Assembly (NCBI GenBank): GCA_000996025.1
Contig: LBYF01000001.1
Location: forward strand, 3,507-67,506
Origin: Parcubacteria group bacterium GW2011_GWA2_40_14
GTDB taxonomy: Bacteria > Patescibacteriota > Minisyncoccia > Phycocordibacterales > DATDWN01
Direction of reading: 5' to 3'
Length of the DNA: 64,000 bases
Made by a program: the position numbers and the translations under genes. The notes beneath the pieces are model-generated. The model was not told the DNA's origin, did no database searches, and saw nothing but the letters and a program-made list of their open reading frames with translations. Shown here one piece after another: positions 5,492 through 57,354 of the stretch. How positions within the stretch are numbered: the first letter of the stretch is position 1; each line of letters begins with the position of its first letter.

Positions 5492-5500
5492 ACAAATAAG

Positions 5501-5540
5501 TTTATAAAGTTATAAAGTTTGTAAAGTTCATAAAGCTAAT
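5501..5540. repeat. Family-2 repeat (GTAAAGTTATAAAGTT words), partial copy upstream of nusA
   Basis: The sequence gtttataaagttataaagtttgtaaagttcataaagc recurs at 37634, 38802 and 56755. Confidence 0.6.
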
Positions 5541-17678: not shown

Positions 17679-17722
17679 ACACATACGTTAACTTCTTGCT
17701 ATAGCAAGAAGTTAACGTATGT
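17679..17722. repeat. Perfect 19-bp-stem palindrome with GCTATAGC centre (family-7-like) after recJ
   Basis: The sequence is cacatacgttaacttcttgctatagcaagaagttaacgtatgtg. Confidence 0.6.
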
Positions 17723-17768
17723 GGGTCTAAGAAGTTATTTATTGTGGATTGCCGTGTATAATGATGAA

Positions 17769-22006: not shown

Positions 22007-22023
22007 AATTTTCATATAATAAA

Positions 22024-22072
22024 ATCATACACGTTCTTTGCGATCGCAAAGAACGTGTATGATTTTATTATG
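22024..22072. terminator. Perfect 22-bp-stem palindrome centred on GCGATCGC between the convergent MBL gene and rpmB
   Basis: The sequence is aaaatcatacacgttctttgcgatcgcaaagaacgtgtatgatttt. Confidence 0.6.
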
Positions 22073-22089
22073 AGTAAAACGTGGGAGTT

Positions 22090-31740: not shown

Positions 31741-31805
31741 CTTACGATATCTCGTAATAAATACACCTATCATACGCTATAGCGTATGATAGGTGTATAG
31801 TGAAC
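31741..31805. repeat. Family-7 perfect palindromes (cttacgatatctcgtaa; atacacctatcatacgctatagcgtatgataggtgtat)
   Basis: The second palindrome is nearly identical to the copy at 40262. Confidence 0.6.
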
Positions 31806-31925: not shown

Positions 31926-32291
31926 TTGATATATAAAACTGTCGGAAAAGTTTATCGTCCTATTTTGAAAGAATATGTTACTTTTAATTCTAAAGGTTTT
32001 TATCACTTACGATACGATACTCACGAGAAAGCGAGAAGGGTGAAAGAACAAATATACAAATTTAATTTGCTTCCACTTATTATTCCCGCAATTAAAAACG
32101 CAAAAAATGTGTTTGATTATAAAAAAGAGCAGTATTCCAAACTCCTTGGCAAATATTACGAAATATGGGAACTTCGAGAAACTGTTGGAGGGAAAAACCC
32201 AACTTCGCTATCTGTGATTTTGAGAAGGATCGGGAACGGAAATATTACATTTCTTAGTGTGTATGACAGAAAACCAAAAATGAAAAAATAG
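31926..32291 (+). CDS. Hypothetical protein; the C-terminal half weakly resembles RelE/ParE-fold toxins
   Basis: YEIWELRETVGG...SVILRRIGNGNITFLSVYDRK echoes the RelE pattern (ELR..YRIIY..V.IL.IGHRK). The match is weak. Confidence 0.3.
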   Translation: MIYKTVGKVYRPILKEYVTFNSKGFYHLRYDTHEKARRVKEQIYKFNLLPLIIPAIKNAKNVFDYKKEQYSKLLGKYYEIWELRETVGGKNPTSLSVILRRIGNGNITFLSVYDRKPKMKK

Positions 32292-35615: not shown

Positions 35616-35644
35616 AAATGATATAGTTGGTTGAGGAGGGACAC

Positions 35645-35893
35645 ATGAGTCTAGAAGAGAGAGAGAGCTTAGAGACAATCGCCAGTCAATTAGGAAAAGA
35701 ATTGGTCGGAGTTATTCCGGGCGTTTGGGGCACCAGTCTTACTGCAAGGCCTGTAAAAGAGCCAGAGTTAAAGCTTAAAGTGATTTGTACCGAGGAAGCT
35801 AAACAAAAAGTTCTTCAAAAATACGGCGACGATAGTTACCGAGGTCATAAACTTTATTTTCAAATTTCAGAACAAGGTCCTCGATTTGCGTAA
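35645..35893 (+). CDS. Hypothetical 82-aa protein inserted between rplB and rpsS, with a strong SD (GAGGAGGG) and its own terminator
   Basis: This is an ORF call. It has an SD 6 nt upstream of the ATG and is followed by a GC hairpin plus T-run. No family was recognised. Confidence 0.5.
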   Translation: MSLEERESLETIASQLGKELVGVIPGVWGTSLTARPVKEPELKLKVICTEEAKQKVLQKYGDDSYRGHKLYFQISEQGPRFA

Positions 35894-37633: not shown

Positions 37634-37721
37634 AAAGTTTGTAAAGTTATAAAGTTCATAAAGTAAAATCCATAATCCACTTTACAAACTTTAAAAACTT
37701 TCAACTTTATAAACTAAATTT
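37634..37721. repeat. Family-2 palindromic repeat between rpsC and rplP
   Basis: The copy reads aaagtttgtaaagttataaagttcataaagt ... ctttacaaactttaaaaactttcaactttataaact. Confidence 0.75.
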
Positions 37722-38543: not shown

Positions 38544-38801
38544 ATGAATAATGAAAAAATAAAAAATAATACAGTAAAAACTCTCTCGGGAGTAGTAGTG
38601 TCAAATAAGATGACAGACACTGTTGTGGTGGAAGTTGTTCGTTTTGTAAAACATCCAAAGTACGGCAAGTACGTCTCTAAAAGCAAAAAGTTTAAAGCCC
38701 ACGATGTCGGCAATACAAAGCAAATTGGGGATAAGGTTACCATAGAGGAGTGCAGACCAATTTCAAAAGATAAACACTTTAGAATAGTCGAAAGTTCGTA
38801 A
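38544..38801 (+). CDS. rpsQ: 30S ribosomal protein S17
   Basis: [18 protein letters not shown]...HD is the S17 OB fold. Confidence 0.85.
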
Positions 38802-38878
38802 AGTTATAAAGTTCATAAAGCAGACTCAAAACCCACTTTACAAACTTTAAAAACTTTATAACTTTATAAACTAAAATT
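38802..38878. repeat. Family-2 palindromic repeat between rpsQ and rplN
   Basis: The copy reads gaaagttcgtaaagttataaagttcataaagc...ctttacaaactttaaaaactttataactttataaact. Confidence 0.75.
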
Positions 38879-39637: not shown

Positions 39638-40234
39638 ATGGAATCAATCAAAGAAAAAACAAAAGAAGCTTTTGATATTATGAAATCGGAGTTTCATTAT
39701 AAAAACATCATGCAAGCCCCAAAAATAGAAAAGGTGGTGATTTCTTGTGGTGTTGGTTCGCAGAAAGACAAAAAGAAACTAGACCTTATAGAAGACCGCC
39801 TCTTAAAAATCACAGGACAGAAACCTGTTCGCAAGGGCGCAAAAATATCAATCGCCGCTTTCAAAGTGCGAGAAGGGGATACTGTCGGTATGCAAATCAC
39901 TTTGCGTGGACAGAGAATGTATGATTTTCTGGACCGATTGGTCAATATTGCACTTCCTCGCACGAAAGATTTTCGAGGAATCTCAGCAAATGCAGTTGAT
40001 GAAATGGGTAACTACACTTTAGGTATAAAAGAAAACACTATTTTCCCAGAGTCGTCCGATGAAGATTTGAAAGATGTTTTCGGTCTTGCCGTTACTATTG
40101 TTACAAATGTTAAAAACAAAGATGAGACAAAAGCTTTTTTGACTCACCTCGGTTTTCCCTTCAAAAAACAATCAGCCGATAAGGCGAAAGCTACGACAGT
40201 CCATGTATCAAAAAGCCGAGCCCCAAAGAAGTAA
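39638..40234 (+). CDS. rplE: 50S ribosomal protein L5
   Basis: The 198-aa ORF has L5 motifs and a basic C-terminal tail. Confidence 0.9.
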   Translation: MESIKEKTKEAFDIMKSEFHYKNIMQAPKIEKVVISCGVGSQKDKKKLDLIEDRLLKITGQKPVRKGAKISIAAFKVREGDTVGMQITLRGQRMYDFLDRLVNIALPRTKDFRGISANAVDEMGNYTLGIKENTIFPESSDEDLKDVFGLAVTIVTNVKNKDETKAFLTHLGFPFKKQSADKAKATTVHVSKSRAPKK

Positions 40235-40261
40235 AATTATTTTCATCTACAATAAATGGAA

Positions 40262-40310
40262 TTTTTTACTCATACACCTATCACACGCTATAGCGTGTGA
40301 TAGGTGTATG
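40262..40310. repeat. Family-7 perfect palindrome (20-bp stem, GCTATAGC centre)
   Basis: The sequence is actcatacacctatcacacgctatagcgtgtgataggtgtatgagt. Confidence 0.7.
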
Positions 40311-40424
40311 AGTTGAACAAGTTTTAATAGGTTTATATATTATTATGTGCTAATATTAATAATAGAAGTTGAGACAGTTTAGTCTCAATATATTTTGTCA
40401 GAAATCACGACTAAAGGAGAAAGT

Positions 40425-40664
40425 ATGAAGTCAAAGAGTTATCTTGGATTTTTGATGTTGTTGGCGTTGATGTTATTTTTGGTTTTGCTTCCGTCCGCAT
40501 TTTCAAGTGTCTATCAAAACACCGGAAACGGGTTGATTCCAGAGTGGACATTTGGAACAAAAACACAAGACCGTGTTGAGACAAACCAAAAGAAGGAGTG
40601 TTTTGAGACGGATGCAAAACAGCCATTCAAGTTTGATGTCTGTTATGTGCCAAACAGACCTTAG
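40425..40664 (+). CDS. Small secreted/membrane protein (signal-anchor) with an SD (AAGGAG)
   Basis: MKSKSYLGFLMLLALMLFLVLLPSAF is a hydrophobic N-terminus. The ORF is inserted between rplE and rpsN. Confidence 0.45.
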   Translation: MKSKSYLGFLMLLALMLFLVLLPSAFSSVYQNTGNGLIPEWTFGTKTQDRVETNQKKECFETDAKQPFKFDVCYVPNRP

Positions 40665-40937
40665 AGAAAGAAAGACGTTCCAGCTTCGACCTTGCCGAAC
40701 TTTTCTCTGCTGTAAAGTCCACGAACTATAAGGAGTTAAAACTTGTATTTGTGGCCACAAGTAGGAGTGGAGATGTAAGTAAAGTTGAATGCACATTCAA
40801 GTTTCAATGAACTGGGCGGGTGGATTTTCAAGGCGGTGAGGAGAGACCTGCCGCCTTTTTGTTTTGTTTGACAATTTGTGTGTATATATGGTAGTTTGTT
40901 TTTAGAATCAGTTCGTCAAAAACAGGGGGGATTATCG

Positions 40938-41912
40938 ATGTCAAAGACTCAACAGCTTGGCAAAAACATGAGTCCAAGCAAAACAAAACTGGGAAAGTTT
41001 TTACGAAAATGTCGTATTAAACTTGGATTAAGGCAAGTTGAAGTAGGCAGACTTTCAATGGTTAAACAATCAGACTACAGTCATTTTGAAACTGGTAGAT
41101 CCAAATATCTCAATCCCAAACAAATCAAAGGTTTAGCCAAAACTCTGAAGTGTCAAGAGGTGGAATTGGAAATTCTTGTTCCACCAAAACCAAAACCAAA
41201 ACAGGAACCTACAACTGAACTCGGCTTACTTATCCGCAACCGAAGGGAAGAGCTTGGGCTGACGATTGAGACTTTTGCCAAAAAGCTCAAAATATCCCTG
41301 GCACAAGCAAAATGTTTGGAAACCCGAATAGCCGAGCGAATGAAGTACAAGTTGTTTGAACCTCTTTTAAGAGTTCTGGAATTAAAACCGTCAGATTTAG
41401 GTAGATTTGTGGGCTGGACTAAAAACGAAAGCCTCACCAGTTTAGGTCAAGTCATCCGTTCACGCCGTAAAGAGCTTGGATTTTCGTTAGCAAGTCTTGG
41501 CCAGAAATTAGGTATCACTCGCGAGCGAGTACGTCAGATTGAGAATAATCGGTCTTCCTTTAGTAATAAAGGGAATAAACTTAAGAAGATAGCTAAAATT
41601 CTCAATCTGAATTTTTCTGAATTGCAAGCATTACAGCCGGCGCGGAGATTCAAAAGAGGCAAGATAGGTACCGACACATTTGGTGGGTTTCTGACTGCTC
41701 GGAGGGTAGAACTTCACCTGACACAATACGAACTTGCTGAACGTGTGGGAATTTCACCAAACACAATCTGTGCCACAGAATTAGGAAAATTTGTGCCTAA
41801 TTCCGATATGTTGGGAAAGATGGCGACGGCTCTTGACTGCGTTATTCCATCTCAACTCATTCTGATTCCTCGTAAGCGCGGTCGTCCTCGGAAGGATTTG
41901 ATTAACTCGTGA
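40938..41912 (+). CDS. Four-repeat XRE-type helix-turn-helix DNA-binding protein with a C-terminal AT-hook (RGRPRK)
   Basis: There are four HTH_XRE-like units (LRQVEVGRLS..., LTIETFAKKL..., FSLASLGQKLGITRERVRQIE..., LTQYELAERVGISPNTIC...), an SD (aggggg), and the ORF sits inside the spc operon. Confidence 0.7.
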   Translation: MSKTQQLGKNMSPSKTKLGKFLRKCRIKLGLRQVEVGRLSMVKQSDYSHFETGRSKYLNPKQIKGLAKTLKCQEVELEILVPPKPKPKQEPTTELGLLIRNRREELGLTIETFAKKLKISLAQAKCLETRIAERMKYKLFEPLLRVLELKPSDLGRFVGWTKNESLTSLGQVIRSRRKELGFSLASLGQKLGITRERVRQIENNRSSFSNKGNKLKKIAKILNLNFSELQALQPARRFKRGKIGTDTFGGFLTARRVELHLTQYELAERVGISPNTICATELGKFVPNSDMLGKMATALDCVIPSQLILIPRKRGRPRKDLINS

Positions 41913-41924
41913 CTGAACTGAATA

Positions 41925-41965
41925 GCCCGTGACCCTCTTTTGGGGTCATGGGCTCATTTATTTTC
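41925..41965 (+). terminator. Rho-independent terminator after the HTH gene (gcccgtgaccc / gggtcatgggc plus a T-run)
   Basis: The GC-rich stem is followed by a T-run. Confidence 0.65.
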
Positions 41966-42030
41966 ATTTGACTTTGTAGATTCTCTTTGCTACTATCTTT
42001 TGAGCTTGCAAAAGCTATTTTTTGTTAGAT

Positions 42031-42216
42031 ATGGCGAAAACATCCGTAAAAGCTAGAGCGGCAAAAGTGCCGAAATTTAAAACACGAGCTACAAATCGTT
42101 GTTTTAAATGCGGACGCGGACATGGATTTATGAGAGACTTCGGTCTATGCAGAATCTGTTTTAGGGAATTAGCAAACGAAGGCAAAATCCCCGGTGTTAA
42201 AAAGTCTAGCTGGTAA
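42031..42216 (+). CDS. rpsZ: 30S ribosomal protein S14, zinc-binding Z-type
   Basis: The 61-aa ORF has CFKCGR...CRICFR (two CxxC pairs). Confidence 0.85.
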
Positions 42217-42345
42217 CCAGAAAAATGTAAACTGTAAAAATCAAAATGGAAAATGACAGATTAAAATTAAAAATGATGAATTCAGAAATTTTGCATTTTA
42301 CATTGTCATTTTGATTTTTGATATTTACATTTTTAATTATATTTT
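42217..42345. repeat. Family-4 AT-rich ~120-bp palindromic repeat (core AGATTAAAATTAAAAATGATGAATTCAGAAATTTTGCATTTT)
   Basis: Three copies share an identical 42-nt core, and each ends at the next start codon. Confidence 0.8.
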
Positions 42346-43410: not shown

Positions 43411-43535
43411 ACTTTCAAATTATGACCCATCTCATCGTCTAAAATTTGAAAAAGAATCGTCACCTACGCACTCAGGTAGGCTCCAATTCTTTTTCAAATT
43501 TTATACGCGACCTAGGTCAAATTTGAAAGTTTAGG
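43411..43535. repeat. Family-5 element with a perfect 13-bp terminal inverted repeat (AAACTTTCAAATT / AATTTGAAAGTTT) and a central hairpin GTCACCTAC...GTAGGCTCC
   Basis: It has terminal inverted repeats, and its internal hairpin is shared with the copy at 56405. Confidence 0.75.
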
Positions 43536-56754: not shown

Positions 56755-56844
56755 GTTTAGTTTGTAAAGTTATAAAGTTTGTAAAGTTTCTAAAGTGGAA
56801 TGCATTTGATGTTACTTTATGAACTTTATAACTTTATGAACTTT
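56755..56844. repeat. Family-2 palindromic repeat between infC and rpmI
   Basis: The copy reads tttgtaaagttataaagtttgtaaagtttctaaagt...ctttatgaactttataactttatgaactttc. Confidence 0.75.
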
Positions 56845-57354
56845 CTAACTTCTCTCGATTACTATCGAGAGACCTTTCAAACTTTTCTTGGCGGGATCTG
56901 CCACTTTATATTCTTCGGTAATCAGTTTCAAAACCCTTTCTATGCGTTCCTTTAGAAACTTGATATCCATATATTTGGTTCTACCTGGCAAAAAAAGGTC
57001 TATTTTGATGCGATTTCCTTCCTTGAGCCAGCCACTGGCCTTTTTGGCTTTGAGCTCTAAGTCGTGTTCCCCAGTGCCTACTTTTATTTGAATATTCTTT
57101 ACCTCTACCGTATGTTGCTTGGTTTTTGCTGTTTTAAGCTTTTTGTTTTCAGCGTATTGAAATTTACCATAATCCATGATTTTTGCAACCGGTGGGTTGG
57201 CGTTTGGTGATATTAGAATAAGGTCAAGCCCCGCCTCACGGGCTTTTTCCAAAGCTTCTTTGAAAGAGATAACTCCCAGATTCGTGCCATCATCTAAAAG
57301 CACACGTAACTCTGGAGCTTGGATTTGATTGTTTATTTTTACGAATGTAGACAA
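56845..57354 (-). CDS. infC: Translation initiation factor IF-3
   Basis: IRAPELRVLLDDG..GVISFKEAL and the C-terminal domain are present. The true start codon may be non-canonical. Confidence 0.9.
   Translation of the reverse strand: MSTFVKINNQIQAPELRVLLDDGTNLGVISFKEALEKAREAGLDLILISPNANPPVAKIMDYGKFQYAENKKLKTAKTKQHTVEVKNIQIKVGTGEHDLELKAKKASGWLKEGNRIKIDLFLPGRTKYMDIKFLKERIERVLKLITEEYKVADPAKKSLKGLSIVIERS

What the first reader, a model, noticed from the sequence alone, without database searches (positions are those of the whole stretch)
40395..41965. Four-HTH XRE-type regulator with AT-hook, plus a small secreted protein, embedded between rplE and rpsN in the spc operon
The 325-aa protein consists of four tandem HTH_XRE-like units and ends in PRKRGRPRKD (AT-hook). 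It has an SD and its own terminator. Quadruple-HTH single-chain regulators are rare, and their location within the ribosomal spc operon is unexpected. The protein could bind the palindromic repeat families that pervade this region, since the DNA is unusually AT-rich and palindromic.
Basis: partly seen in the sequence, partly recalled or inferred. Interest (0 to 1): 0.6.

Follow-up and report, generated by a model that had tools for sequence, protein, structure and literature searches.

The report
Four-domain XRE DNA-binding protein in ribosomal operon
A real gene for a very basic DNA-binding protein made of four linked helix-turn-helix domains sits between two ribosomal protein genes of a groundwater "Zambryskibacteria" (CPR) bacterium, but the position is a species-specific occupant of a spot where this whole bacterial group keeps inserting unrelated genes, so the location says little about what the protein does.

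Summary
Window 40938-41912 encodes a 324-aa protein with four Cro/C1 (XRE) HTH domains and a disordered C-terminal PRKRGRPRKD tail. It has its own promoter-like site, SD and terminator, and lies between rplE and rpsN.

It belongs to an uncharacterised family: about 120 clusters at E<=1e-30, modally four collinear units (range 3-11). All 96 full-length members are very basic (pI>9.5). Named sources are CPR bacteria.

- **Location.** Homologues lie elsewhere, often near tRNA genes, never in this operon. In 41 related CPR loci, rplE|rpsN is the only one of 13 ribosomal-gene junctions that is expanded (median 632 nt against 3-32 nt). It holds unrelated ORFs, often small membrane or secreted proteins.
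- **Small secreted protein.** It is a truncated allele. A 127-nt deletion cuts a 170-aa orphan protein to 79 aa, and another strain carries a different C-terminal half.
- **Strain variants.** In some contigs the four-HTH gene is interrupted at 41179-41185 next to a large serine recombinase gene.

Best reading: a monomeric multi-subsite DNA-binding regulator acting as a "single-chain tetramer". Its targets are unknown, and a link to the local repeat families is not supported. Interest is moderate.

The parts
39638..40234 (+). rplE (L5), upstream flank of the insert
   Evidence: ORF of 198 aa; Pfam Ribosomal_L5 and L5_C on the identical gene in sister contigs
40268..40313 (.). Perfect 46-bp palindrome just after rplE. 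It is one of two copies of a palindrome family; the other is at 31761-31798.
   Evidence: I3, I11; 4 arm matches against 0 expected. RNA hairpin of -41.1 kcal/mol, z -10.5. Found only in contigs of this species. No Rfam family.
40313..40341 (+). Promoter-like site (TTGAAC-17-TATATT) abutting the palindrome, upstream of the secreted-protein gene
   Evidence: A similar TGAACT...TATGTA arrangement follows the other palindrome copy. Consensus match only.
40425..40664 (+). Truncated (79-aa) allele of a 170-aa orphan secreted protein. N-terminus MKSKSYLGFLMLLALMLFLVLLPSAFS has n-, h- and c-regions. SD AAAGGAG lies upstream.
   Evidence: Hydrophobic maximum 2.8 at residues 6-22. No Pfam, NCBIfam, PHROG or PADLOC match. 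Only two clusters of relatives among 5.8 billion.
40662..40664 (+). Site of the 127-nt deletion relative to sister contigs (L001 9600-9726). It creates an in-frame TAG.
40665..40810 (+). Out-of-frame remnant of the 3' part of the 170-aa gene
   Evidence: Alignment to L001 9727-9873
40815..40866 (+). Terminator-like hairpin plus U-rich tail after the secreted-protein gene
   Evidence: Fold (second sequence); sequence
40868..40897 (+). Promoter-like site of the four-HTH gene: TTGACA (40868-40873), 18-nt spacer, TAGTTT (40892-40897)
   Evidence: Sequence. A TTGAC box 70-120 nt upstream of the start codon occurs in all 12 distinct family loci.
40925..40931 (+). Shine-Dalgarno GGGGGGA, 6 nt before the ATG
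   Evidence: A conserved GGAGGAnTACCGATG context is seen in homologues.
40938..41912 (+). Four-HTH protein gene (324 aa; pI 10.46, net charge +37)
40986..41177 (+). XRE HTH unit 1 (residues 17-80)
41179..41185 (.). Break point (TTCCACC, shared core about CACC) in the unit 1-unit 2 linker. In strain-variant contigs a large-serine-recombinase element is joined here.
   Evidence: L104 matches the window up to 41185; L011 matches from 41179. The recombinase has Resolvase, Recombinase and Zn_ribbon_recom domains.
41217..41408 (+). XRE HTH unit 2 (residues 94-157)
41439..41630 (+). XRE HTH unit 3 (residues 168-231). Its recognition helix ITRERVRQIE resembles sigma-70 region 4.2.
   Evidence: HTH_3 best stretch 173-229; Sigma70_r4 E 2.3e-8
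41679..41858 (+). XRE HTH unit 4 (residues 248-307)
41868..41897 (+). AT-hook-like tail PRKRGRPRKD (residues 311-320) in a disordered segment
   Evidence: Pfam AT_hook 10.5 bits, below threshold. pLDDT about 50. GRP-type tails occur in about 10-13 of 166 family members.
41924..41964 (+). Intrinsic terminator (13-bp stem, 8 GC pairs, T-run)
   Evidence: (z -4.2)
41968..41996 (+). Promoter-like site (TTGACT-17-TACTAT with TG) ahead of rpsN
   Evidence: Consensus match only.
42031..42216 (+). rpsN (zinc-type S14, 61 aa), downstream flank
   Evidence: Pfam Ribosomal_S14 in sister contigs

Best explanation
The 324-aa product is a sequence-specific double-stranded-DNA-binding regulator built as a 'single-chain tetramer'. 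Ordinary XRE/Cro/cI repressors bring several HTH domains together by oligomerising. This protein instead has four diverged XRE domains (20-29% identical to one another) joined covalently by 10-16-residue linkers that are Pro/Lys-rich or basic.

One monomer could therefore place four different recognition helices in successive major grooves. That would read a long asymmetric site of roughly 40-45 bp. The C-terminal RGRP tail would add a minor-groove contact on an adjacent A/T tract.

The gene is an autonomous unit with its own promoter-like site, SD and terminator. It occupies a clade-wide variable slot between rplE and rpsN, and its position there is incidental rather than functional.

Shown: the four-domain architecture, the basic charge, the family, the autonomous signals and the slot. 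Inferred: DNA binding itself, monomeric multi-site reading, and a regulatory role. The target sites are unknown.
For: - Four HTH_3 stretches. Four separate helical bundles with high pLDDT and low pTM (0.51), that is, beads on a string.
- Each unit matches DNA-bound repressor domains such as P22 c2, 434 Cro, SinR and C.AhdI.
- pI 10.46 and net charge +37. All 96 full-length four-unit relatives have pI>9.5.
- Units align position for position across the family, with Arg-rich helix 1 conserved and recognition helices more variable. This fits diverging DNA specificity.
- There is no extra oligomerisation or sensor domain in this member.
- A conserved TTGAC promoter box lies upstream in all family loci.
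- Documented precedent: the archaeal protein Cbp1 aligns three tandem HTH domains 5' to 3' along one CRISPR repeat as a single chain (PMC10883916).
- Incidental location: homologues sit elsewhere. rplE|rpsN is the only expanded junction of 13 (median 632 nt, 31 of 41 loci above 300 nt) and holds unrelated ORFs.
Against: - No binding site has been identified. The window's own promoter region shows no convincing four-part motif.
- The very high positive charge, and the conservation of this charge across the family, would also fit a low-specificity architectural or RNA-binding protein.
- 7 of 11 homologue loci lie within about 1 kb of tRNA genes, and one lies beside alaS. This hints that genomic position may not be wholly random for the family.
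- Monomeric action is inferred only from the absence of a recognisable dimerisation domain.
Confidence: 0.55

Rival explanations
1. It is a nucleoid-associated or architectural protein. It coats or bridges A/T-rich intergenic DNA, possibly including the periodic TAAAGTT arrays (four copies per arm) and the long palindromes in this genome's ribosomal gene cluster. It would not act as a gene-specific regulator.
For: - Extreme basic charge across the whole family.
- AT-hook-like tail.
- The window holds TAAAGTT arrays with four repeats per arm at 37634-37715, 38791-38872, 56759-56851 and 5498-5535 (13 pattern hits against 0.02 expected).
- It also holds a two-copy 38-46-bp perfect palindrome.
- Family members range from 3 to 11 units, as expected if unit number is flexible.
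Against: - The four units have different recognition helices, so four identical sub-sites are not the expected target.
- The TAAAGTT arrays occur in relatives whose rplE-rpsN slot lacks this gene, and are absent from all homologue loci fetched.
- The palindrome is confined to this species.
- The AT-hook-like tail is present in only about 10-13 of 166 members.
- The gene is interrupted in some strains, which is unlikely for a major chromatin protein.
Confidence: 0.2
2. It is a repressor left by, or belonging to, a mobile element: a phage-CI-like immunity or maintenance regulator. It would have been carried into the rplE-rpsN slot together with the neighbouring orphan secreted-protein gene.
For: - The slot is an insertion hot spot that elsewhere holds a reverse transcriptase (L023), pilins and other cargo.
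- The best structural match in the viral library is a 316-aa 'Repressor protein CI' from a siphovirus metagenome, aligned over the whole chain (E 4e-11).
- PHROG hits are to phage repressors.
- The insertion is species-specific.
- A serine-recombinase element targets the gene in some strains.
Against: - There is no integrase, transposase or other mobile-element gene in the insert.
- There is no compositional anomaly.
- The family was not found in 2.9 million viral contigs.
- Homologue loci show ordinary chromosomal neighbours such as def, fmt, efp, aminoacyl-tRNA synthetases, ftsZ and uvrC.
- PHROG matches are generic XRE matches.
Confidence: 0.15
3. It is an RNA- or ribosome-associated factor. 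The XRE-type domains would bind rRNA, tRNA or mRNA, as the HTH domain of MBF1/EDF1 does on the ribosome. This would explain a position among translation genes.
For: - Its pI is like that of ribosomal proteins.
- The window copy lies inside the ribosomal operon. 7 of 11 homologue loci lie within about 1 kb of tRNA genes, and others lie next to alaS/infA-rpsM or def-fmt-efp.
- Sequence and fold hits include MBF1/EDF1 bound to ribosomes.
- A conserved 5'-UTR hairpin with G-U wobbles occurs in six homologue loci.
Against: - The MBF1 model score is far below its cut-off (49 against 110), and the hits are generic XRE hits.
- No homologue other than this one lies in a ribosomal operon.
- Close relatives with the same operon lack the gene.
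- It is interrupted in some strains.
- tRNA proximity can also reflect integration hot spots.
Confidence: 0.07

Closest known systems
XRE / Cro-cI family repressors (434 repressor and Cro, P22 c2, SinR, C.AhdI controller proteins)
   Same: Each of the four units has the same five-helix HTH fold and sequence signature (Pfam HTH_3). Single units superpose with TM about 0.8.
   Different: Those proteins carry one HTH domain per chain and reach two- or four-site occupancy by dimerising or tetramerising on palindromic operators. Here four diverged domains sit in one chain with no oligomerisation domain, which predicts a long asymmetric site.
Cbp1, the CRISPR-repeat binding protein of Sulfolobales (PMC10883916)
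   Same: A single chain of tandem duplicated HTH domains joined by short linkers. Its domains align 5' to 3' along one DNA site as a monomer. This is the best documented mechanistic analogue.
   Different: It is archaeal, has three units, and its target is CRISPR repeats, with Cren7 recruitment. Homology to the present family was not tested. No CRISPR array is present in the window.
Wmk (prophage WO male-killing candidate), a two-HTH XRE protein (PMC6736233)
   Same: Tandem XRE-type HTH domains in one chain. The NCBIfam Wmk model hits two stretches (E 7e-10).
   Different: Score 38.8 against a cut-off of 300, so this protein is not a member. Wmk has two units, is encoded by a Wolbachia prophage and acts in a eukaryotic host.
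POU domain proteins and engineered single-chain 434 repressors (recalled from general knowledge, not tested here)
   Same: They covalently link Cro/cI-like HTH modules through a flexible linker, so that one chain reads adjacent sub-sites. The Pfam Pou model hits unit 3 weakly (E 9e-7).
   Different: They are eukaryotic or artificial and have two modules only.
HMGA-type AT-hook
   Same: An RGRP core flanked by Lys/Arg residues in a disordered tail.
   Different: The Pfam score is below threshold. There is a single copy, and only a minority of family members have it.
Uncharacterised multi-HTH 'Repressor protein CI' of a siphovirus metagenome (BFVD A0A8S5SGL7, 316 aa)
   Same: It aligns along the full chain (327 columns, E 4e-11), consistent with a similar multi-HTH chain.
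   Different: 22% identity and no experimental data. The present family was not found in viral contigs.

Membership tests
XRE / Cro-C1 HTH superfamily (Pfam HTH_3, PF01381) | Sequence match to the family model above the curated cut-off | tested here: met
   106 bits against a cut-off of 23, E 9e-31, four separate stretches. HTH_31 and HTH_19 are also above their cut-offs.
XRE / Cro-C1 HTH superfamily (Pfam HTH_3, PF01381) | Compact helical bundle containing the helix-turn-helix, superposable on solved repressor DNA-binding domains | tested here: met
   The AF2 model has four bundles. Foldseek TM normalised to target is 0.75-0.88 for P22 c2, 434 Cro, SinR, C.AhdI and CapH.
XRE / Cro-C1 HTH superfamily (Pfam HTH_3, PF01381) | Sequence-specific binding to operator DNA | not testable with these tools
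   No binding assay is possible, and no operator was identified.
AT-hook (Pfam PF02178) | GRP core flanked by basic residues, scoring above the family cut-off | tested here: inconclusive
   The motif PRKRGRPRKD is present at residues 311-320, but the score is 10.5 bits against a cut-off of 17.4 (E 0.62).
AT-hook (Pfam PF02178) | Located in an intrinsically disordered segment | tested here: met
   pLDDT is 46-52 for residues 311-324, with no secondary structure.
Type II antitoxin HipB / Y4mF family (TIGR03070) | Model score above cut-off | tested here: inconclusive
   93.6 bits against 71.65, but this is summed over four stretches of a 58-position single-domain model.
Type II antitoxin HipB / Y4mF family (TIGR03070) | Adjacent cognate toxin gene (HipA-type kinase or similar) | tested here: not met
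   The neighbours are an orphan secreted-protein gene and rpsN. Homologue loci have no conserved partner.
Wmk (NF047948) | Equivalog model score of at least 300 bits | tested here: not met
   38.8 bits
MBF1 (TIGR00270) | Equivalog model score of at least 110 bits | tested here: not met
   49.3 bits
Conserved gene content of the spc ribosomal operon | Gene present at this position in related genomes | tested here: not met
   None of 80 rplE loci (57 of them CPR relatives) has a homologue in the 6 kb downstream. Homologues lie elsewhere.
Conserved gene content of the spc ribosomal operon | Co-transcription with flanking ribosomal genes (no own promoter or terminator) | tested here: not met
   There is a strong hairpin after rplE, a promoter-like TTGACA-18-TAGTTT site, the gene's own terminator, and a promoter-like site before rpsN. 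These are sequence predictions only; no transcript data exist.
Uncharacterised poly-XRE family (defined here: P0003-P0166) | Collinear alignment over all four units with relatives | tested here: met
   35-46% identity over 92-98% of the length to 20 proteins. 120 clusters at E<=1e-30; 98 of 166 sequences have four units.
Sec-type signal peptide (small upstream ORF) | Basic n-region, hydrophobic h-region, small-residue c-region | tested here: inconclusive
   MKSK / SYLGFLMLLALMLFLVLL / PSAFS by inspection, with a hydropathy maximum of 2.8. No dedicated predictor was available.
Large serine recombinase (in variant contig L104, not in the window) | Resolvase, Recombinase and zinc-ribbon domains | tested here: met
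   PF00239 (22.8 bits, just under its 23.3 cut-off), PF07508 and PF13408 on L104 4219-5532 (-)

The most novel reading that the evidence does not exclude
The poly-XRE proteins would be a CPR-specific class of single-chain, multi-groove DNA (or RNA) binders tied to the translation apparatus. In this organism the protein would sit inside the ribosomal operon because it binds the periodic four-repeat TAAAGTT arrays or long hairpins that directly precede ribosomal-protein start codons. It would thereby tune ribosomal gene expression in genomes that have very few conventional regulators.
Probability: 0.08. Interest if true: 0.75.

Novelty: new variant of a known kind. Interest (0 to 1): 0.4.

Why it matters
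XRE regulators are among the commonest bacterial transcription factors, and they are understood as dimers on palindromes. A natural family that fuses four (up to eleven) diverged XRE domains into one very basic chain would recognise long asymmetric sites by a different logic. No member has been studied.

CPR bacteria have few regulators, so such a protein may be a major one. Separately, the work shows that one junction of the otherwise rigid ribosomal operon (rplE|rpsN) is a clade-wide variable gene slot. That is useful for annotating CPR genomes, for strain typing, and as a caution against reading function from that position.

Tried and rejected
1. **Operon-linked function.** Rejected as the main reading. 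The nine homologue contexts fetched with gene tables lie outside ribosomal operons, and close relatives lack the gene.
2. **Toxin-antitoxin antitoxin (HipB, MqsA, HigA hits).** Rejected. There is no partner gene, and the scores come from summed generic HTH stretches.
3. **Defence-system component.** PADLOC gives only generic HTH hits.
4. **Phage origin.** The family is absent from viral contigs, and the palindrome is absent too. This reading is kept only as a minor rival.
5. **Known RNA element in the intergenic hairpins.** Rfam gives only spurious miRNA hits.
6. **Palindrome or TAAAGTT arrays as the target.** No co-occurrence with the family was found. This remains untested rather than disproved.
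7. **Autoregulatory operator.** Several homologues share a hairpin (AAUCAnGCC...GGCUUGAUU) just after the predicted transcription start. It keeps pairing through G-U wobbles, so it looks like an RNA-level element, and the window has only its left half.
8. **Compositional evidence for recent transfer.** None found.
9. **AFDB fold search.** The library was unavailable.
10. **Literature searches for four-HTH or tandem XRE proteins.** No study of this family was found.
Full report
**Source and setting.** The window matches metagenomic contigs of one organism at 99.9-100% identity. That organism is 'Candidatus Zambryskibacteria bacterium RIFCSPLOWO2_12_FULL...' (CPR/Parcubacteria, groundwater; GCA_001824095.1). 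The region is the S10-spc ribosomal gene string: tuf, rpsJ ... rplX, rplE, then the insert, then rpsN, rpsH ... secY.

**Checking the observation.**
- Between rplE (39638-40234) and rpsN (42031-42216) lie 1,796 nt instead of the usual few tens.
- ORF 40938-41912 encodes 324 aa. The family alignment supports the ATG at 40938, preceded by GGGGGGA, rather than the upstream GTG.
- Pfam finds HTH_3 in four separate stretches (E 9e-31, 106 bits against a cut-off of 23). HTH_31 and HTH_19 are also found four times.
- AlphaFold2, run with a 21-sequence alignment, gives mean pLDDT 85.9 and four helical bundles at residues 17-80, 94-157, 168-231 and 248-307. Linkers are 10-16 residues long and residues 308-324 are disordered. 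pTM of 0.51 fits independently mobile domains.
- Against the PDB, only single-domain matches appear: P22 c2, 434 Cro and repressor, SinR, C.AhdI, CapH and MBF1/EDF1. TM is 0.75-0.88 normalised to the target. No solved chain has several XRE domains.
- The tail PRKRGRPRKD (residues 311-320) has the RGRP core of an AT-hook but scores below Pfam's threshold.
- The gene has a strong intrinsic terminator at 41924-41954.
- The architecture claim is therefore correct.

**The small upstream ORF.**
- It starts at ATG 40425 behind AAAGGAG and has a signal-peptide-like N-terminus.
- Seven sister contigs carry 127 additional nt at window position 40663 and encode a 170-aa protein there, five of them in full and two cut by a contig end (L001 9361-9873). 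The window's deletion shifts the frame into an immediate TAG after 79 aa.
- The protein has no family match in four libraries. Only two clusters of relatives exist among 5.8 billion.
- One relative (L110) is a co-occurring strain. Its flanks are 99.7-100% identical, but the C-terminal half of this gene, from about residue 95 onward at the DNA level, is replaced by unrelated sequence.
- The gene is thus a fast-changing, strain-variable orphan. The window holds a broken allele.

**The four-HTH protein belongs to a family.**
- A word-indexed search found 22 relatives of 300-528 aa, 35-46% identical over 92-98% of the query.
- An exhaustive HMMER search of 1.84 billion representatives found 1,030 hits at E<=1e-3, 299 at E<=1e-10 and 120 at E<=1e-30. 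Most are 290-350 aa and collinear with the whole query.
- Counting units with a profile built from the family gives 4 units in 98 of 166 sequences, 5 in 23, 3 in 33 (many of these are fragments), and up to 11 units in an 883-aa protein.
- Units align position for position between proteins. Within the window protein they are only 20-29% identical to one another, so the duplication is old and the four units are not equivalent.
- Helix 1 (LGxxIRxRRxELGL) and the ExG motif are conserved in every unit. The recognition helices are more variable.
- All 96 full-length four-unit members have pI>9.5 (median 10.45, median net charge +29). The window protein has pI 10.46 and net charge +37.
- Some members add a fifth or sixth unit and a C-terminal domain (IKEL...LLRRLLEKQ...). 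That domain looks ribbon-helix-helix-like by eye; this was not tested.
- About 10-13 members end in a GRP-type basic tail like the window's.
- Named sources are Zambryskibacteria and a Microgenomates bacterium.
- The family was not found in 2.9 million viral contigs. However, the best structural match among predicted viral proteins is a 316-aa 'Repressor protein CI' aligned along the whole chain.
- Literature searches found no study of such proteins.

**Is the position meaningful?**
- All nine homologue contexts fetched with gene tables lie outside ribosomal operons, and they share no conserved neighbour.
- A scan of species-representative genomes with this rplE returned 80 loci. None has a relative of the four-HTH protein or of the secreted protein within 6 kb downstream of rplE.
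- Gap sizes were measured at 13 consecutive gene junctions from rpsC to secY. In the CPR relatives the rplE|rpsN junction has a median of 632 nt, with 31 of 41 loci above 300 nt, 21 above 600 nt and a maximum of 5.7 kb. The other twelve junctions have medians from -38 to 32 nt and almost never exceed 300 nt.
- In the non-CPR genomes rplE|rpsN is tight, with a maximum of 87 nt.
- In further CPR loci rpsN is not found within 6 kb at all.
- The slot holds unrelated ORFs: a response-regulator-like protein, a reverse transcriptase, pilin-like proteins and YfcE-like phosphoesterases. In 11 of 27 cases it holds small proteins with an N-terminal hydrophobic segment.
- The rplE|rpsN junction is therefore a clade-wide variable slot. 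The secreted-protein gene fits its commonest kind of occupant, and the four-HTH gene is a species-specific addition. GC content gives no sign of recent import.

**Signals around the genes.**
- A perfect 46-bp palindrome (40268-40313; RNA hairpin -41 kcal/mol, z -10.5) follows rplE and abuts a promoter-like site.
- A second copy of the same palindrome (31761-31798) precedes another non-ribosomal ORF between tuf and rpsJ.
- The secreted-protein gene ends with a hairpin and a U-rich tail.
- The four-HTH gene has TTGACA-18-TAGTTT at 40868-40897. A TTGAC box 70-120 nt upstream of the start codon is found in all 12 distinct family loci.
- After its terminator, a TTGACT-17-TACTAT site precedes rpsN.
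- By sequence, the spc operon here is split into separate units. No transcript data were available.

**Search for targets.**
- The window contains real repeat families. One is the palindrome above. The other is a set of 9-bp TAAAGTT arrays with about four copies per arm, usually as inverted pairs. They lie at 37634-37715 (ending 6 nt before the rplP ATG), 38791-38872 (before the rplN ATG), 56759-56851 and 5498-5535. The pattern gives 13 hits against 0.02 expected.
- The arrays also occur in seven related loci but in no homologue locus.
- The palindrome is restricted to this species.
- Neither repeat family lies at the four-HTH promoter, and the four units differ in their recognition helices.

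**Mechanism.** The best-supported model is a monomeric multi-subsite DNA binder, a natural single-chain equivalent of a repressor tetramer, with the basic tail as a minor-groove anchor. The documented precedent is Cbp1, whose three tandem HTH domains line up 5' to 3' along one CRISPR repeat (PMC10883916). Wmk is the closest named tandem-XRE protein, but the window protein fails its model (38.8 against 300 bits; PMC6736233). The rivals are an architectural protein, a mobile-element repressor and an RNA/ribosome factor. They are listed with their evidence in the rival explanations.

**Strain variation in the gene itself.**
- Contig L104 is identical to the window up to 41185 and then continues into a 438-aa large serine recombinase on the opposite strand. 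That recombinase has Resolvase, Recombinase and Zn_ribbon_recom domains, and its last codons run into the host sequence.
- Contig L011 is unrelated DNA (Peptidase_S51, a 100-aa XRE protein, a DUF5677-like protein) up to the same point, and is identical to the window from 41179 onward.
- The shared core is about CACC, within the linker between units 1 and 2.
- This is best read as a recombinase-borne element integrated into the gene in some strains. The window would then carry the uninterrupted site. The two junctions come from different samples, so the element is not closed.
- This suggests that the gene is dispensable, or switchable.

**Verdict.** The finding is real and its architecture is correctly described. 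It is a new architectural variant of a very well known domain family, and it belongs to an unstudied family found mainly in CPR bacteria. The striking location is explained by a clade-wide insertion slot and carries little functional weight. Interest is moderate (0.4).

Noticed in passing
window 39638-42216; loci L016-L072: In CPR relatives, rplE|rpsN is the only expanded junction of 13 ribosomal-gene junctions (median 632 nt, up to 5.7 kb). It holds unrelated ORFs, often small proteins with an N-terminal hydrophobic segment. In non-CPR genomes the junction is tight.
   Followed up: yes
window 41179-41185; L104 4216-5532 (-); L011 1-3871: In strain-variant contigs the four-HTH gene is interrupted between units 1 and 2. 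One junction carries a large serine recombinase whose 3' end crosses into host DNA. The other carries unrelated cargo. The element is not closed, and the junctions come from different samples.
   Followed up: partly
window 40663; L001 9600-9726; L110 6286-6559: There are three alleles of the orphan secreted-protein gene among near-identical strains: 170 aa, 178 aa with an unrelated C-terminal half, and the window's 127-nt deletion allele (79 aa). The variable part starts close to where the deletion starts.
   Followed up: partly
window 37634-37715, 38791-38872, 56759-56851, 5498-5535: Arrays of a 9-bp TAAAGTT repeat, about four copies per arm, usually form inverted pairs (long AU-rich hairpins). 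They end 6-7 nt before start codons (rplP, rplN and two minus-strand genes) that lack an obvious SD. The pattern gives 13 hits against 0.02 expected, and it also occurs in seven related loci.
   Followed up: partly
window 31761-31798 and 40268-40313: A two-copy family of perfect 38-46-bp palindromes (ATACACCTATCAYACGCTA|TAGCGTRTGATAGGTGTAT). Each copy is followed by a promoter-like site and precedes a non-ribosomal ORF inserted in the ribosomal gene string. It is confined to this species' contigs.
   Followed up: partly
window 31926-32291, and about 35627-35893 (L001 4563-4829): Further ORFs without any family match sit inside the ribosomal gene string: 121 aa between tuf and rpsJ, and 88 aa between rplB and rpsS. 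Downstream of secY lie PaaX-like, ceramidase-like, MNT/HepT and RelB-type genes.
   Followed up: no
window 42221-42341, 43436-43507, 17680-17723, 22009-22078, 2424-2468: Long A/T-rich or perfect inverted repeats lie in many intergenic regions. The one between rpsN and rpsH folds at -30 kcal/mol (z -4.1) and ends just before the rpsH ATG.
   Followed up: no
L007, L008, L012, L097, L098, L101 (5' UTRs of homologues): A conserved hairpin (AAUCAnGCC-loop-GGCUUGAUU) starts about 7-13 nt after the predicted -10 box. Pairing is kept through G-U wobbles. The window has only the left half, at 40907-40913.
   Followed up: partly
L008, L010, L012, L013, L098, L099, L100: tRNA genes lie within about 1 kb of the four-HTH homologue in 7 of 11 loci. 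Another homologue (L108) lies next to alaS and 4.5 kb from infA-rpsM. No background rate was computed.
   Followed up: partly
L011 1278-1323 and 3689-3734: A 46-bp perfect inverted repeat flanks a 2.4-kb segment (XRE, DUF5677-like and 296-aa ORFs) inside the putative integrated element.
   Followed up: no
A1 columns 500-565 (P0003, P0005-P0009, P0012, P0015, P0016 and others): About 20-25 family members carry a conserved C-terminal domain (IKEL...VRKAxxLLRxLLEKQ...VVxLE). It looks ribbon-helix-helix-like by eye; this was not tested.
   Followed up: no
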